Origin: Minisyncoccota bacterium
GTDB taxonomy: Bacteria; Patescibacteriota; Minisyncoccia; Phycocordibacterales; UBA6899
Assembly (NCBI GenBank): GCA_035583355.1
Contig: DATEZQ010000012.1
Location: 24,683 to 88,682 of the forward strand
Length of the DNA: 64,000 nucleotides
Direction of reading: 5' to 3'
Shown here: piece after piece, positions 37,875 to 42,843 of the stretch
Layout of the letters: each line of letters opens with the position of its first letter
How positions within the stretch are numbered: position 1 is the stretch's first letter
Notes under the pieces: model-generated
What the model was told of the DNA's origin: nothing
Database searches by the model: none
The model's input: only the letters and a program-made list of their open reading frames with translations
Translations under genes and position numbers: made by a program

Positions 37875-37961
37875 GGAGACGTGGCTGAGTGGTCGAAAGC
37901 ACCTCACTGCTAACGAGGCATCCCTTTACCGGGATCATGAGTTCGAATCTCATCGTCTCCG
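37875..37961 (+). tRNA. tRNA-Ser (anticodon GCT)
   Basis: Acceptor GGAGACG/CGTCTCC, anticodon loop CTGCTAA, long variable arm (ATCCC-TTTACC-GGGAT), T-arm ATGAG-TTCGAAT-CTCAT, discriminator G. Confidence 0.8.
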
Positions 37962-38020
37962 CAAAAAGAAAAACAACACGCAAGTGTTGTTTTTCTTTTT
38001 GCGGAGACGATGAGATTCGA
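37940..38020. repeat. 81-nt perfect palindrome spanning the tRNA-Ser 3' end, a terminator hairpin and an inverted copy of the tRNA 3' end
   Basis: gttcgaatctcatcgtctccgc + gcaaaaagaaaaacaacac-gcaa-gtgttgtttttctttttgc + gcggagacgatgagattcgaac. Confidence 0.7.
37959..38003. repeat. 43-bp direct repeat DR-left (second copy 39657-39704)
   Basis: gcaaaaagaaaaacaacacgc(a/g)agtgttgttttt(c/g)ttttt is about 40/43 identical between the two copies. Together they bracket a 1.65-kb two-gene module. Confidence 0.55.
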
Positions 38021-38023
38021 ACG

Positions 38024-38200
38024 GATAGGGGTCGGGAAAGGAAGCCCTTTCCCGTCTAGGAGAGCAGGAACCCCTCTTCCCCGAAGAGGGGTTCCGTCGA
38101 GAACCGTGGGTTCTCGAAGCCTTTGGCAGCGCGAGGCTCCTCCGGAGTGCGCCAGCCAAAGGCTGTGAGATTCTCACCCCTTATTAAACAAAAATCTGTC
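38024..38200. ncRNA. GC-rich multi-hairpin element (candidate small RNA or island-border element)
   Basis: Consecutive near-perfect hairpins: gggaaagg-aagc-cctttccc; ggaacccctcttc-ccc-gaagaggggttcc; tcgagaacc-gtg-ggttctcga; gcctttggc...gccaaaggc. The GC content is far above that of the adjacent AT-rich island. Confidence 0.3.
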
Positions 38201-38246
38201 ACTAGTAGCTCTCCAATTCTCTTAGTCTTAACTAGCCTCCTTGCCT

Positions 38247-38690
38247 CTATGAAATCACTTCTTCCACAATTCTTCCGTCTCTATAAACCCAGACGACGTG
38301 CACGCATCTTTTAAGTACTCCAACGAAGATGCCAATTTGGTAATTTAGATTTCTGTAACTCCTTATTTTATTGATATCCGCTACCCCCAATATTGAGCTC
38401 GGGGAGCATTTTTTTATTTCAAATATTGCAAGATTGCGTTCATTTGAACCTCTTCTGTGAATTATTATATCAGGTCGAACAACTGTTCCATCATCATTCA
38501 TTTTTGGTCCAGCTAAGCTTTTGCTATATTCACAGTCTATGTTAAATTCTTGCCCAAAATTACTTTCTAGATACAGAGCAATCCTATGGCTCAGGGTCGG
38601 CTCGTAGATTTTTACATTCATTAGTTCTACCCAGTCATTATCCATAAATAATCGAATTGCGGAACGAATTCCATTTTTTGTATCCTCCAT
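38247..38690 (-). CDS. hypothetical protein with PD-(D/E)xK-like motif
   Basis: 147 aa. RPDIIIHRRG...NLAIFEIKK fits hD-x(n)-E-x-K of restriction-endonuclease-fold nucleases. It lies in AT-rich DNA. Confidence 0.35.
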   Translation of the reverse strand: MEDTKNGIRSAIRLFMDNDWVELMNVKIYEPTLSHRIALYLESNFGQEFNIDCEYSKSLAGPKMNDDGTVVRPDIIIHRRGSNERNLAIFEIKKCSPSSILGVADINKIRSYRNLNYQIGIFVGVLKRCVHVVWVYRDGRIVEEVIS

Positions 38691-38694
38691 ATTA

Positions 38695-39471
38695 CTAGTT
38701 TTCTAATTTGACATATTTCTCTAGTTCAAGTGCAGCATCTCTAATCCCAGATATTTCATATATTAAATCACTGAGTCTATATATCATATCTGATGTTGCC
38801 ACAGACCACTGTTCGCACTGCTTACTCTGGAGGCTCCACAATTCTTTCTCTTTATCTAGGTTTTCTACGGCCTTCTCTTCCTTCTCCCTCAATAATATAT
38901 TTGCGTAATCCCAGTTAATAGTGTCTTTCAATCCATCTGAATGAAGGATCGAACTAAAGTTTTTTAGAATTTCTACCTCAGTAGCAGGTGCATTTATGTA
39001 GTAGCCAAAATCTCCCTTATTACCACCATGCTTATGATTGTTGCCAATATCTGTTATAGGTTTAAATTGAATATCTATTCTATCAATAAGTCCATTTAAC
39101 GACTCAACAACTTCCTCATCACGAGGGATATTCTTTTTAATAAATTTGATAAATCTTAATAATCTTTCTTTATATGCATACACATCAGCATAATATGAGT
39201 GAATATGGTATTGGAGAGCGTCTCCATCAGGTATTGCATCCAGTTCAACGTAAAAGTATTTAAAATATACAGTATACTTTTTTAATTTATTTTCGAACCA
39301 TTCGATTTCAGTTAATCTGTTTATACACTCATTTATATTAACTGTGTTAACGGTCAATAAAAGTGGTCTAATCTTCTGATTGATTTCTGAGATCATATAT
39401 TCTGTTCCCACATTCGTATCTCTAGATATTGAAAGTATACTTTTTATTCTTTGCAAGTGGCTTATTAACAT
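38695..39471 (-). CDS. hypothetical protein
   Basis: 258-aa ORF in AT-rich DNA. It lies 4 nt upstream of, and in a different frame from, the PD-(D/E)xK-like gene; no known domain. Confidence 0.35.
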   Translation of the reverse strand: MLISHLQRIKSILSISRDTNVGTEYMISEINQKIRPLLLTVNTVNINECINRLTEIEWFENKLKKYTVYFKYFYVELDAIPDGDALQYHIHSYYADVYAYKERLLRFIKFIKKNIPRDEEVVESLNGLIDRIDIQFKPITDIGNNHKHGGNKGDFGYYINAPATEVEILKNFSSILHSDGLKDTINWDYANILLREKEEKAVENLDKEKELWSLQSKQCEQWSVATSDMIYRLSDLIYEISGIRDAALELEKYVKLEN

Positions 39472-39656
39472 ACTTAAATTCTATCATGTACTTGCATAAT
39501 CTAAAGTCTAGAATTATTGCGCACCAATCTATTGAATTAGAAGTGCTACGGCCTTTTTGAAAGTGTGGCTAGAAATACCGACCCGCGAGCCTCATAAAAC
39601 GGATCAATATAATCCAAAATAACCTTACAGTACCTACGCCCACGATTACCTCACTC

Positions 39657-39704
39657 ATATGGCCTGCAAAAAGAAAAAACAACACGCGAGTGTTGTTTTT
39701 GTTT
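39657..39704. repeat. 43-bp direct repeat DR-right
   Basis: See DR-left. Confidence 0.55.
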
Positions 39705-39797
39705 TTCCACAGAATCCAATTAATACGAATACCCTCCTTGTTCAGAAACAGCAATTAAATACTTAAGGAATAAAATATTTCACGTACACAGAGAGTT

Positions 39798-41564
39798 CTA
39801 ATCAATTTCACTGTATACGACTTCCCTAAGGAATCTATCTTTTCGAGTAAACGTTGCCCTGGTATGCGCCTGTATGTCGAGCTTGATTTCTTTAGTCCTC
39901 TCTTCATTCTCAATTTTATCCCTATTTAACGTAAGAATATATTGAAAGTTTGACTTTTCCTCTTGCTCTGCGAGAAAATTAAGGCTCTGCACTAGCGTAT
40001 CTTGGTCCACATCAAAAATATTATCATGCACCAATATTGATGGATGTCGCTTCTTCGTATGATTATTAATCATCAATGCAATGTCATAAATAAATACCTT
40101 TTCCCTATCAACGCTATGACTCCCATCTTCAGGAATACGAAAATCGAATTGAACAATTTTTTTACCCTTACCAGACTTTACCGCGGATATATCAAAAGTA
40201 ATTTTGGCATTGCCCATTATATACGAGTGAATATCAGCAAGTGTCCTGTTGAAATCATCGATAACGCTGTTGTAGGACATTATTTCATCTTCAAGGGCAG
40301 ACACGTAGCCATCTCTCTTGCGTTTTAAGACGTTTATCTCATACTCAACACTCTCATGTTCACGCAAATTTGCTTGAGTAATTGATAAATTTTCTTTCCT
40401 CCTAGACATTAATGCGTAACTTTCTTTTAATGAATCAAGGGAACCATTGAAATTTATCATCACAAGCAATGACGACCTTCTCGCGTCTAAAACACTCAAA
40501 CGACTCTGGATTTTTTGCACCTCACTTCTAATCTCGTGAGCACGACCGTCTATAAGGATCTTTTGATAATTCTCAATTTTTTGCTTAAACGCGACAACAT
40601 CACTAATTGACCTTGCAACCAAATCACCAAGCCCCTTTGCAAATTTGTTATACACAAATTGAACTTCGCTAGTATCAATAATTTCCAACTTAGGTATAGA
40701 TTCAATTCTCTGAAGTTCAAACCTTAATGCCGCCCTCTTAATTCGCAGCTGTTCACATTCTAAATCAATATTCCCAAGCTCCTCTTGGTTATTTTGGAAA
40801 ATTGGTTCCATCTTATATTCATCAAGAAGTGAGTTTATTTTTCCGAGCTCAAGCTCAGAATCATTAACTTCGGCCTTGATGTCAGAAATATTTTGATTCC
40901 CAGAACCAGTCAACCTTTTTGTAATATGATTTTTAGTTTTCTGCTTTTCATCAATTTCCTTAAATACCTTTTTTATTCTCCTTATATAGCTAGGATTAAT
41001 TCCGAAAAGGTATAAATGTGGCTTGGTGAGATCTTGGTCAGGGATCTTTTCCCTCAAATCGTAGCAATTTAAAATACTCTTAAATTCTGAATCCTCAGAC
41101 CGTATTAATGGGCCCATAAACTCTCTGAAACTCGGCCTTTCTATATCATCTCCTGAATTGCTGAAAAGCAAATTTCCTAGGTAGGTAGTCGCATCTGCCA
41201 TATTCTTAAACTTTGTAATCTGGCCCTCACATACAATTTCCGGCTTATTCGGCTCTTTTATGGTTCTCCTCAATGTTAACTCCTTCCCGCCGATTGAAAC
41301 GTCAAGACAAATTATTGCGTTATGCGAAAATTTATCAAGCGGGATTTTCATAACCCTGCTATCACTCGAGTCCTTTAAAAGGCAAAAGTTGATAAATTCG
41401 ACTGAGAGCGACTTTCCGACTCCATTTGTTTTTTTATCCTTCCTGGACGTAGACCTTGATTCTGAATCCGGGACCTTCTCTCCAAGAATAATATTTATAC
41501 CATCATAAAAACTGATGGGCTTGAAAGTCTCTGGTTGGCTATATAGCTTATGTAGACGAATCAT
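39798..41564 (-). CDS. SMC/ABC-type ATPase (ABC-three-component-like / DUF2326-like) with coiled-coil insert
   Basis: N-terminal P-loop KKTNGVGKSLSVEF (xxNGxGKS), then about 300 aa of coiled-coil-like sequence. The C-terminal region has a Walker-B-like SILVHDNIFDVD with D-loop. The start overlaps the upstream stop. Confidence 0.5.
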   Translation of the reverse strand: MIRLHKLYSQPETFKPISFYDGINIILGEKVPDSESRSTSRKDKKTNGVGKSLSVEFINFCLLKDSSDSRVMKIPLDKFSHNAIICLDVSIGGKELTLRRTIKEPNKPEIVCEGQITKFKNMADATTYLGNLLFSNSGDDIERPSFREFMGPLIRSEDSEFKSILNCYDLREKIPDQDLTKPHLYLFGINPSYIRRIKKVFKEIDEKQKTKNHITKRLTGSGNQNISDIKAEVNDSELELGKINSLLDEYKMEPIFQNNQEELGNIDLECEQLRIKRAALRFELQRIESIPKLEIIDTSEVQFVYNKFAKGLGDLVARSISDVVAFKQKIENYQKILIDGRAHEIRSEVQKIQSRLSVLDARRSSLLVMINFNGSLDSLKESYALMSRRKENLSITQANLREHESVEYEINVLKRKRDGYVSALEDEIMSYNSVIDDFNRTLADIHSYIMGNAKITFDISAVKSGKGKKIVQFDFRIPEDGSHSVDREKVFIYDIALMINNHTKKRHPSILVHDNIFDVDQDTLVQSLNFLAEQEEKSNFQYILTLNRDKIENEERTKEIKLDIQAHTRATFTRKDRFLREVVYSEID

Positions 41565-41782
41565 ATCTTGAAAATATAAGGCTCCGAAAAATCAACTACT
41601 CCAGATTGATATAGAAATATCAAAGTAAAAATCAATTGGCGATGATTAACTAAACCAACTTGATCTTTCAAACTCAAAACAAGCTCATCGAGGGTGATTT
41701 TTTTTCTTTTTTGAATTCTCTTCAAAATAAGAAACCCTAGATAAGGGGGCGAAACTCCTATTTTTTCATCTTTTGTAATCAT
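41561..41782 (-). CDS. small hypothetical protein (73 aa), middle gene of three-gene cassette
   Basis: Both ends overlap its neighbours by 4 nt (ATGA), indicating translational coupling. Confidence 0.4.
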   Translation of the reverse strand: MITKDEKIGVSPPYLGFLILKRIQKRKKITLDELVLSLKDQVGLVNHRQLIFTLIFLYQSGVVDFSEPYIFKI

Positions 41783-42738
41783 GGAGCGTTCGGGAAAACA
41801 TTACACTTCACCAATTCGTCGAGTAAGTAAAACCTGATTGCCTGATAATCATACTTTTTCTTTGAATTTTTGGAAATTTCATTCTCGAAATATTCAGTGA
41901 GATTAACAAGTGCAACCTCCGCATCCCCATCAGCCTGGGTAAGAAAATCATCACTTCTAATTCGTAGAAAATTCCTCATATACTCGACCTTGGCAGTATC
42001 AAGGCCTAAGGCTCTATCGACTTCAACTCTTGCTGCGCAGTAAATAGGAAGAAGAGAGACTAGTTGCGATTTTAGAAATTCAGATTTCGAAGAGAATCGC
42101 TGCTCGATTTTCCCCTGAGGGTCTGGCTCCTCGCGATACTGTCCATTCGTTAATTCCTTTTTTTCACTAATGTACAGAACCAAATCTGCGATAGTCTCAA
42201 CCTCAGATGCAATTTTGTTTTCAGTTTTAGAATGAGAGCCACCCGAAAATTCCTCCTCAAAAATTTGTAAAATCCTCATGATCTCCCCAGGGGATCCTTT
42301 TGCCCGAACTAAACCTAAGATATCTGTCAAATCCATAATATCCCCTGAATCAAACTTTATTCCTTTAGGGGCAGTAATTGATTTAATTTTACGCTTTTTA
42401 TCTGCAATAATAATAAATTTCAATGTATCATACGAGGAAGAAAGCCCATTGGCGTCAAAAGCTTTTATTGTTTTATCAATTTTTGTTTTACTATTCTCGG
42501 ATGTAACTTGAACGGAAACGCGTTTCTCTTCATCCCCCAGGTCAATAGAGGGGAAGTTCATTCTTAGAATATTTTTATTTTCGAGATTTAAAGCGAGAAT
42601 TTCATTAAGCAGGCGACAGAAAAAATCTTCTAGGTGACTATTTATATCCGTTAGGCCATTTCCATTACTTATCTTAGTTTGCACTTTTATGCGAGCAAGA
42701 TATGCTGTCACCTCATTAATTAAATCTTGCCTATCCAT
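41779..42738 (-). CDS. SMEK-like domain protein (first gene of cassette)
   Basis: The N-terminal region EVTAYLARIKV...LTDINSHLEDFFCRLLNEILALNL...MNFPSIDLGDEEKRVSVQVTS resembles, from memory, N-termini annotated as SMEK domain in ABC-three-component-type conflict systems. Confidence 0.35.
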   Translation of the reverse strand: MDRQDLINEVTAYLARIKVQTKISNGNGLTDINSHLEDFFCRLLNEILALNLENKNILRMNFPSIDLGDEEKRVSVQVTSENSKTKIDKTIKAFDANGLSSSYDTLKFIIIADKKRKIKSITAPKGIKFDSGDIMDLTDILGLVRAKGSPGEIMRILQIFEEEFSGGSHSKTENKIASEVETIADLVLYISEKKELTNGQYREEPDPQGKIEQRFSSKSEFLKSQLVSLLPIYCAARVEVDRALGLDTAKVEYMRNFLRIRSDDFLTQADGDAEVALVNLTEYFENEISKNSKKKYDYQAIRFYLLDELVKCNVFPNAP

Positions 42739-42843
42739 GCTGCAATTATATCATAATTGAAATTGAATTCTCCTTAGCACGTAGTAATATTGTCGAAAAA
42801 ACCGCCAACGCGGTTTTTATTACCTCTTGCATCCTCCTACTCT

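What the first reader, a model, noticed from the sequence alone, without database searches (positions are those of the whole stretch)
39798..42738. Translationally coupled three-gene cassette (SMEK-like protein, 73-aa protein, SMC/ABC-type ATPase) in an AT-rich island: candidate undescribed defence system
Three minus-strand genes overlap by 4 nt at both junctions (ATGA). The last gene encodes a 588-aa protein. It has an N-terminal SMC/RecF-type P-loop (NGVGKS), about 300 aa of coiled-coil-like sequence, and a C-terminal Walker-B/D-loop region (SILVHDNIFDVD). This is the layout of SMC/ABC-type ATPases used by Lamassu, Septu/Gabija-like and ABC-three-component conflict systems.

The first gene's N-terminus (FPSIDLGDEEKRVSVQVTS, preceded by a conserved helical block) resembles, from my memory of database annotations, SMEK-domain proteins that partner such ATPases. 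The 73-aa middle gene is unusually small for the middle component of known ABC-3C or Lamassu cassettes.

The DNA is strongly AT-rich relative to its flanks. It sits beside a tRNA gene and carries no integrase. The combination may represent a compact or new variant of an NTP-dependent anti-phage system.
Basis: partly seen in the sequence, partly recalled or inferred. Interest (0 to 1): 0.85.

Follow-up and report, generated by a model that had tools for sequence, protein, structure and literature searches.

The report
Lamassu (ABC-3C) defence operon, SMEK nuclease
The three overlapping genes are real. They form an ordinary member of an already described anti-phage system (type II "short" Lamassu, also called ABC-3C) with a SMEK/Mrr-like nuclease effector, not an undescribed system.

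Summary
Observation confirmed. Three minus-strand genes (319, 73 and 588 aa) overlap by ATGA at both junctions. They lie in a 36% GC island (flanks 48-49%) that starts next to tRNA-Ser.

Interpretation not supported. The cassette matches an already catalogued system:
- The 319-aa protein has a SMEK_N domain (Pfam E 1e-38). This is a restriction-endonuclease-fold domain, homologous to the solved Kordia pAgo "Mrr" domain. A helical C-terminal domain follows it.
- The 73-aa protein is a divergent ABC-3C middle component 6. Of the 45 aligned family members, 40 hit Pfam MC6, and the 44 relatives are 65-100 aa. Its size is therefore typical, not unusually small.

The same three genes, in the same order, occur in all 10 related loci examined, from Patescibacteria, Firmicutes, Omnitrophica and a Rhizobium plasmid. 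RefSeq labels a more distant Vibrio plasmid version as "ABC-three component system". A 2025 Lamassu survey lists SMEK among short-Lamassu effectors.

Likely mechanism, by analogy: an LmuB dimer plus LmuC holds LmuA inactive, DNA ends release it, and the nuclease aborts infection.

Minor open points: the LmuA C-terminal domain is not in Pfam, Walker B is always HDN, and no SMEK-type Lamassu appears to have been tested. Interest is low.

The parts
42745..42753 (-). Putative extended -10 promoter element TGATATAAT, ending 6 nt before the LmuA start codon. This suggests a leaderless or near-leaderless mRNA.
   Evidence: Read directly from the sequence. No Shine-Dalgarno motif within 15 nt of any of the three starts. 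A pattern match only, not tested.
41779..42738 (-). lmuA: 319-aa effector protein with a SMEK_N nuclease domain and a helical C-terminal domain.
   Evidence: ORF. Pfam SMEK_N E 1.1e-38. 100% identical to a public protein named 'SMEK domain-containing protein [Candidatus Paceibacterota bacterium]'. AF2 model pLDDT 85.6.
42244..42738 (-). SMEK_N domain (residues 1-165): restriction-endonuclease-fold (Mrr-like) nuclease domain. Invariant residues are E37, D66, Q77, T79 and K86.
41782..42213 (-). LmuA C-terminal helical domain (residues 176-319), with an invariant C-terminal motif (I)KCNVFPN. Presumed docking and oligomerisation domain.
41561..41782 (-). lmuC: 73-aa middle component, a divergent member of ABC-3C MC6, basic (pI 9.6).
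   Evidence: Pfam MC6 E 0.017, 15.5 bits, below the cut-off of 27.2. All 7 syntenic homologues hit MC6, best E 1.8e-8. A full HMMER scan found 44 homologues of 65-100 aa. 40 of the 45 aligned members hit MC6 at E<=0.01. pI.
39798..41564 (-). lmuB: 588-aa SMC/Rad50-like ABC ATPase (DUF2326), the 'short' LmuB type, without a zinc hook.
41409..41432 (-). Walker A / P-loop, K45-T-N-G-V-G-K-S52.
   Evidence: K45, T46, G48, V49, G50 and K51 are invariant; N47 and S52 are nearly invariant.
40005..40037 (-). Deviant Walker B plus D-loop, I510-L-V-H-D514-N515-I-F-D-V-D520. Asn replaces the catalytic Glu.
   Evidence: H513, D514, N515, I516, V519 and D520 are invariant. The motif hhHDN occurs in 117 of 117 homologues.
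39675..39700 (-). Intrinsic terminator of the operon: 11-bp stem and T-run, bidirectional.
   Evidence: It lies about 100 nt after the lmuB stop codon.
38200..42840 (.). AT-rich island (GC 0.36) holding this operon and a separate two-gene cassette, next to tRNA-Ser(gct) at 37875-37962.

Best explanation
This is a type II 'short' Lamassu system (synonym: ABC-three-component, ABC-3C, system) in the order lmuA-lmuC-lmuB. It is carried on a small AT-rich defence island of a Patescibacteria (Candidatus Paceibacterota) genome.

**Shown here**
- LmuB is a Rad50/SMC-like ABC ATPase whose closest solved fold is Vibrio cholerae LmuB.
- LmuC belongs to the MC6 middle-component family.
- LmuA carries an N-terminal SMEK/Mrr-like restriction-endonuclease-fold domain and a helical C-terminal domain.
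- The three genes are tightly packed, co-occur and co-vary across phyla.

**Inferred by analogy with the solved V. cholerae, Salmonella and Bacillus Lamassu complexes**
- An asymmetric LmuB dimer, with one LmuC, holds one LmuA monomer inactive through its C-terminal domain.
- LmuB and LmuC bind DNA ends or replication intermediates produced by a phage or plasmid.
- Slow ATP turnover by the deviant Walker B site (HDN) releases LmuA.
- Released LmuA oligomerises through its C-terminal domain, which brings SMEK nuclease domains together.
- Indiscriminate DNA cleavage then follows, and the infection is aborted.

The ATGA overlaps, and the lack of ribosome-binding sites before lmuC and lmuB, suggest translational coupling that keeps the subunits in proportion.
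For: **Family assignments**
- SMEK_N E 1e-38, DUF2326 E 7e-24 and MC6 sub-threshold.
- MC6 by transitivity: 7 of 7 syntenic homologues and 40 of 45 aligned family members hit it.

**Fold**
- It is homologous to the solved Kordia SMEK/'Mrr' domain, E 3.5e-35. That domain's pAgo complex has reported nuclease activity (PMC12205087; PMC10810196).

**Synteny**
- All 10 loci with an LmuB of at least 35% identity carry A, C and B contiguously in the same order. Identities fall in parallel across the three proteins.

**Public annotation and literature**
- RefSeq naming of a Vibrio plasmid triad as an ABC-three component system.
- ABC-3C equals type II Lamassu.
- Short LmuB is about 600 aa, SMEK is a short-Lamassu effector, Walker B is deviant and the zinc hook is optional.
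- The mechanism for the Vibrio system is described.

**Context**
- AT-rich island.
- Relatives sit beside restriction-modification genes, OLD-family, nSTAND and integrase genes, and on plasmids.
Against: - No experiment exists on this locus. None on any SMEK-type Lamassu was found in the literature held here.
- The 73-aa protein itself scores below Pfam's MC6 cut-off.
- No solved Lamassu protein is detectable by sequence for LmuB, LmuC or the CTD. The mechanistic transfer therefore rests on fold and architecture only.
- The SMEK active site lacks the canonical (D/E)xK. It reads D66...Q77-V-T79 with K86.
- Walker B has Asn where the survey reports Q/S/T/E.
- PADLOC v2 files the ATPase only as the candidate PDC-M68B, not as Lamassu.
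Confidence: 0.82

Rival explanations
1. A truly undescribed defence system, or a compact new variant distinct from ABC-3C/Lamassu.
For: - PADLOC v2 has no Lamassu hit, only the candidate PDC-M68B.
- The middle protein is below the Pfam cut-off.
- The LmuA CTD has no Pfam family.
Against: - All three components map to ABC-3C families, directly or through close homologues.
- The fold of the ATPase is closest to LmuB.
- The architecture is the same as the RefSeq-annotated ABC-3C triad.
- SMEK is already listed as a short-Lamassu effector.
- The sizes are typical.
Confidence: 0.05
2. A Lamassu-like sensor whose effector works differently from the Vibrio Cap4 paradigm. The SMEK domain could cleave RNA or ssDNA, nick DNA, or be activated without CTD tetramerisation. 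The HDN ATPase could act as an ATP-binding switch that hardly hydrolyses ATP.
For: - The active site is non-canonical: D...QxT plus K86.
- Only weak collateral activity on dsDNA and ssDNA is reported for the Kordia SMEK-APAZ complex.
- The CTD is unrelated in sequence to CTD10 and to solved LmuA CTDs.
- Asn after the Walker B Asp is invariant in 117 of 117 homologues.
Against: - The overall architecture, fold and gene order are those of type II Lamassu.
- Solved type I and type II systems with unrelated CTDs still share the sequestration and release logic.
Confidence: 0.1
3. A housekeeping Rad50/SbcC-like DNA-repair or chromosome-maintenance module rather than an immune system.
Against: - There is no Mre11/SbcD partner. 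The partners are a SMEK nuclease and an MC6 protein.
- It lies in an AT-rich island.
- Its distribution is patchy across phyla, and it occurs on plasmids and next to integrases and restriction-modification genes.
- The top fold hit is LmuB itself.
Confidence: 0.02

Closest known systems
ABC-3C system of the SMEK_N / MC6 / DUF2326 type (Krishnan, Burroughs, Iyer & Aravind 2020, NAR 48:10045; paper not held here). Examples: Rhizobium sp. ZX09 plasmid NZ_CP031365.1 and Vibrio alginolyticus plasmid NZ_CP135970.1.
   Same: - Same three genes in the same order, with similar sizes (320-338, 78-80 and 570-576 aa) and overlapping junctions.
- The Rhizobium triad is homologous over the full length of all three proteins, including the CTD, E 4.8e-39.
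   Different: - The Vibrio LmuA carries Pfam CTD10, which is not detectably related to the CTD here. Its LmuB is only 22% identical.
- The window's MC and CTD fall below or outside the Pfam models.
Type II short Lamassu, V. cholerae DdmABC / LmuACB (PDB 9NY5, 9NYG, 9UXL) and Salmonella LmuACB (9HQU, 9HQX).
   Same: - Gene order is effector, small middle protein, SMC-like ATPase.
- LmuB is about 600 aa with a deviant Walker B and no zinc hook.
   Different: - The effector is SMEK/Mrr-like instead of Cap4.
- The middle component is MC6 instead of MC3, and the CTD is not CTD7.
- LmuB belongs to Pfam DUF2326 rather than DUF3732.
- No sequence-level similarity is detectable.
- The Walker B follower residue is N rather than Q/S/T/E.
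SMEK-APAZ effector of the short pAgo system of Kordia jejudonensis (PDB 26bh, 'Mrr domain').
   Same: - The nuclease domain is homologous, E 3.5e-35.
- The conserved residues E, D, Q-x-T and K are all shared.
   Different: The sensor platform is entirely different: a guide-loaded Argonaute with an APAZ domain instead of an SMC-like ATPase with a middle component. Only the effector module is shared.
Rad50-Mre11 / SbcCD DNA-repair complex.
   Same: - It is the proposed ancestor of Lamassu (abstract).
   Different: - There is no Mre11/SbcD phosphoesterase and no zinc hook.
- The coiled coil is much shorter.
- It is paired with a sequestered toxic effector.
PADLOC candidate system PDC-M68.
   Same: The ATPase matches PDC-M68B over its full length, E 6.8e-57.
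   Different: - This is a computational candidate label only.
- LmuA and LmuC gave no PDC-M68 hit.

Membership tests
ABC-3C / type II (short) Lamassu | SMC/Rad50-like ABC ATPase (LmuB) of about 600 aa, with Walker A and a deviant Walker B flanking a coiled coil | tested here: met
   - 588 aa.
- Walker A KTNGVGKS and Walker B LVHDN are invariant.
- The coiled coil spans about residues 192-450.
- Pfam DUF2326.
ABC-3C / type II (short) Lamassu | Small middle component (LmuC/MC family) encoded between the effector and ATPase genes | tested here: met
   - A 73-aa gene sits between the two.
- Its own Pfam MC6 score is only 15.5 bits, below the cut-off of 27.2.
- All 7 syntenic homologues, and 40 of the 45 aligned family members, hit MC6. 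Membership is therefore by transitive homology.
ABC-3C / type II (short) Lamassu | LmuA with a variable N-terminal effector domain | tested here: met
   - SMEK_N E 1e-38.
- SMEK is listed among short-Lamassu effectors.
ABC-3C / type II (short) Lamassu | LmuA C-terminal ABC-3C CTD that docks on LmuB and LmuC | tested here: inconclusive
   - A helical domain with highly conserved motifs is present.
- None of 27 members hits a Pfam CTD family.
- It is not similar to CTD10.
ABC-3C / type II (short) Lamassu | Conserved co-occurrence and order of lmuA-lmuC-lmuB | tested here: met
   10 of 10 related loci from several phyla and a plasmid.
ABC-3C / type II (short) Lamassu | LmuA1:LmuB2:LmuC1 complex, DNA-end sensing and anti-phage/abortive-infection phenotype | not testable with these tools
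   This needs biochemistry and phage assays. No multimer prediction tool was available.
PD-(D/E)xK (restriction-endonuclease fold) nucleases, Mrr-like | Alpha-beta-beta-beta-alpha-beta core fold | tested here: met
   [not shown]
PD-(D/E)xK (restriction-endonuclease fold) nucleases, Mrr-like | Canonical catalytic D ... (D/E)-x-K triad | tested here: inconclusive
   - D66 is invariant, but the next strand reads Q77-V-T79. An invariant K86 follows on the next helix, and E37 is invariant on helix 1.
- The same residues occur in the Kordia domain, which is reported to be active.
- The geometry was not inspected.
Type I Lamassu (lmuA-lmuB only) | Two-gene system lacking a middle component | tested here: not met
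   A conserved middle gene is present.
Long Lamassu | LmuB of about 800 aa, Walker B hhhhDD and a single CxxC zinc hook | tested here: not met
   588 aa, Walker B HDN, and no CxxC.
Septu / Gabija | PtuA/PtuB or GajA/GajB protein families | tested here: not met
   - No PADLOC hit.

The most novel reading that the evidence does not exclude
This clade spans Patescibacteria, Firmicutes and Rhizobium plasmids. It combines three features: a SMEK nuclease with a non-canonical active site, an uncatalogued LmuA C-terminal domain ending in an invariant KCNVFPN motif, and an LmuB whose Walker B is always HDN. It could be a mechanistically distinct Lamassu branch. LmuB might act as an ATP-binding switch with little hydrolysis. 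Effector release or assembly might differ from the Cap4 tetramer model. If so, the locus would show an abortive-infection system working in ultra-small episymbiotic bacteria.
Probability: 0.1. Interest if true: 0.45.

Novelty: new member of a known kind. Interest (0 to 1): 0.2.

Why it matters
The value is mainly for annotation. The locus should be labelled as a short type II Lamassu/ABC-3C system with a SMEK nuclease, and the 'hypothetical' 73-aa protein as LmuC (MC6-like).

Three points add modest interest:
- Many of the closest named relatives are from Patescibacteria (CPR). An SMC-based abortive-infection system is therefore circulating among bacteria with very small genomes.
- I found no experimentally studied SMEK-type Lamassu.
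- The CTD type found here and the invariant HDN Walker B are not covered by current Pfam models or by the motif summary in the 2025 survey.

None of this changes the picture of how Lamassu works.

Tried and rejected
- **Word-index search with the 73-aa protein.** It found only itself, so that search was wasted. The exhaustive HMMER scan and synteny were needed instead.
- **Genome-collection scan with LmuB alone.** It returned a single locus.
- **Sequence searches of the PDB.** LmuB as a single sequence and as a profile, the MC profile and the LmuA CTD all found no Lamassu structure. Only fold comparison linked LmuB to solved LmuB.
- **Krishnan et al. 2020.** The paper could not be read; it is not held. 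Statements about ABC-3C rest on Pfam and RefSeq names and on papers that cite it.
- **Test of the window CTD against Pfam CTD10 through the Vibrio homologue.** Rejected, hhalign E 0.19.
- **tRNA-targeted integrative element.** Considered, but no direct repeat of the tRNA 3' end and no integrase were found.
- **Rfam scan of the island.** Only the tRNA was found.
- **PD-lambda-3.** It is not described in the text of Vassallo et al. held here. The 258-aa neighbour has no hit in any library.
Full report
**1. Observation**

- Both junctions are ATGA overlaps.
- GC is 0.367 for the operon and 0.36 for the 38200-42840 island, against 0.48-0.49 on both flanks.
- tRNA-Ser(gct) lies at 37875-37962. It is separated from the operon by another two-gene cassette (38247-39471) in the same island.
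- No integrase-like ORF is present.
- No direct repeat of the tRNA 3' end marks the other border.
- An extended -10 element (TGATATAAT) ends 6 nt before the first ATG. None of the three starts has a nearby Shine-Dalgarno motif.
- An 11-bp-stem terminator follows the last gene at 39675-39700.

Together these features describe one transcription unit with probable translational coupling.

**2. What the proteins are**

*The 319-aa protein (LmuA)*
- Residues 10-142 match Pfam SMEK_N (E 1.1e-38) and NCBIfam SMEK_N (E 1.3e-28).
- The same region matches the solved 'Mrr domain from Kordia jejudonensis Mrr-APAZ pAgo' (PDB 26bh). E is 7.8e-17 with the single sequence and 3.5e-35 with a family profile.
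- The invariant residues are E37, D66, Q77, T79 and K86. This is a non-canonical version of the D...(D/E)xK site.
- The Kordia domain shares these residues. Its Argonaute complex is reported to have nuclease activity on dsDNA and ssDNA (PMC12205087; PMC10810196).
- Residues 176-319 form an all-helical domain with many invariant positions and an invariant C-terminal KCNVFPN motif.

*The 588-aa protein (LmuB)*
- It matches Pfam DUF2326 (E 7.4e-24) and PADLOC PDC-M68B over its full length (E 6.8e-57).
- Its model (pLDDT 84.6) has a split ABC head and long helices over residues 192-450.
- Walker A is KTNGVGKS and Walker B/D-loop is LVHDNIFDVD. Both are invariant, Asn follows the Walker B Asp in 117 of 117 homologues, and there is no CxxC zinc hook.

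*The 73-aa protein (LmuC)*
- It scores only 15.5 bits against Pfam MC6 ('ABC-3C system Middle Component 6'), below the cut-off of 27.2.
- The equivalent genes in seven syntenic loci are clearly homologous, with 16 invariant positions. All seven sequences hit MC6, best E 1.8e-8.
- An exhaustive HMMER scan found 44 representative homologues of 65-100 aa.
- Of the 45 sequences in that alignment, 40 hit MC6 at E<=0.01.
- The protein is basic, pI 9.6.

**3. Conservation of the cassette**

LmuB homologues are abundant: 992 at E<=1e-5 among the scored candidates. The window's own three proteins are in NCBI from a 'Candidatus Paceibacterota bacterium' MAG.

Homologues of all three window proteins lie contiguously, in the order A-C-B, in every one of 10 loci with an LmuB of 35-59% identity. 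These loci come from:
- Patescibacteria, including Gottesmanbacteria
- Brevibacillus laterosporus
- Paenibacillus polymyxa
- an Omnitrophica MAG
- a Mariniphaga MAG
- a JGI metagenome contig
- a conjugative Rhizobium plasmid

Identities fall in parallel across the three proteins. In one public record the middle gene was simply not called.

Neighbours in these loci include integrases, a DpnII restriction-modification pair, an OLD-family ATPase, an Mrr-nSTAND protein and IS66. Fifty-four plasmids carry a DUF2326 relative. This is the usual setting of a mobile defence system.

**4. Comparison with what is known**

- Reviews and structural papers state that ABC-3C systems (Krishnan et al. 2020) are the same thing as type II Lamassu. 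The gene order is lmuA, lmuC, lmuB, with V. cholerae DdmABC as the prototype (PMC10586767; bioRxiv 10.1101/2025.06.23.660979).
- Haudiquet et al. (PNAS 2025, PMC12663957) divide Lamassu into long and short types. In the short type, LmuB is about 600 aa, Walker B is deviant, and there are zero to two zinc hooks. They list SMEK among the effector domains specific to short Lamassu.

The statement that a 73-aa middle gene is unusually small is wrong, because that is the normal size for MC6.

**5. Mechanism**

*Shown here:* the domain identities, the folds, the operon structure and the co-evolution of the three genes.

*Inferred from the solved Vibrio, Salmonella and Bacillus complexes:*
- An asymmetric LmuB dimer plus one LmuC sequesters one LmuA through its C-terminal domain.
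- LmuB and LmuC bind DNA ends or phage replication intermediates.
- Slow ATP hydrolysis promotes release of LmuA.
- LmuA oligomerises through its C-terminal domain and activates the nuclease.
- Non-specific DNA degradation and abortive infection follow.

I put about 0.8 on 'Lamassu/ABC-3C with a nuclease effector that works broadly in this way'. My confidence is lower for individual steps such as tetramer formation or the substrate of the SMEK domain.

**6. What is not fully ordinary**

- The LmuA C-terminal domain has no Pfam family in any of 27 members. It is shared with the Rhizobium homologue (E 4.8e-39) but is unrelated to CTD10 of the Vibrio SMEK protein (E 0.19).
- No solved Lamassu component is detectable by sequence.
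- PADLOC v2 treats the ATPase only as a candidate, PDC-M68B.
- The Walker B follower is Asn, whereas the survey reports Q/S/T/E.
- I found no experimental study of a SMEK-type Lamassu.

These are sub-family details, not a new kind of system.

**7. Verdict**

The interpretation as an undescribed system is not supported. The locus is a new member of a known kind, and its interest is low (0.2).

Noticed in passing
window 37941-38022: A perfect 39-nt inverted repeat with a 4-nt loop. The left arm is the last 22 nt of tRNA-Ser(gct) plus half of a terminator hairpin. The right arm includes an inverted copy of the tRNA 3' end (I1). This is not the direct-repeat signature expected of a tRNA-integrated element, and its origin is unexplained.
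   Followed up: partly
window 37963-38007 and 39669-39713: A 45-nt direct repeat at 84% identity of the same A-rich/T-rich terminator hairpin (D2). The second copy is the terminator of the Lamassu operon. The two copies bracket the two-gene cassette at 38247-39471, which hints that the cassette was inserted or duplicated at the terminator.
   Followed up: partly
window 38247-39471 (minus strand): A separate two-gene cassette at GC 0.34. The first gene (38695-39471) encodes a 258-aa protein with no hit in Pfam, NCBIfam or PADLOC. The second (38247-38690), starting 4 nt later, encodes a 147-aa protein that matches PADLOC PD-Lambda-3_A (E 1.7e-14) and has a PD...EIK nuclease-like motif. It may be a second small defence system whose partner protein is uncharacterised.
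   Followed up: partly
window 38023-38200: A GC-rich stretch full of short hairpins (for example 38112-38127 / 38155-38170) between the inverted tRNA end and the cassette. It has no convincing ORF and no Rfam match.
   Followed up: partly
window 42739-42800: An extended -10 element (TGATATAAT) ends 6 nt before the lmuA ATG, and no Shine-Dalgarno motif is present, which suggests a leaderless mRNA. Upstream, a hairpin terminator (AAAAACCGCGTTGGCGGTTTTTT) ends the preceding RibD_C gene.
   Followed up: no
L002 6765-8033; L004 6835-8806: In two Patescibacteria relatives, a convergently oriented Trypsin_2 protein plus a small unknown ORF sits immediately downstream of lmuB. This may be another conserved defence module. 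It is absent from the window.
   Followed up: no
L009 3777-3995: The middle (LmuC) gene exists in the Omnitrophica MAG but was not called in the public gene set. Small MC genes are probably under-annotated.
   Followed up: yes
window 40005-40037 (LmuB residues 510-520): In 117 of 117 homologues the residue after the Walker B Asp is Asn (motif hhHDN). This residue is not among the Q/S/T/E reported for short Lamassu.
   Followed up: partly
window 41782-42213 (LmuA residues 176-319): The C-terminal domain has an invariant terminal KCNVFPN motif. It is absent from Pfam and is distinct from the CTD10 found on a Vibrio SMEK-type LmuA.
   Followed up: partly
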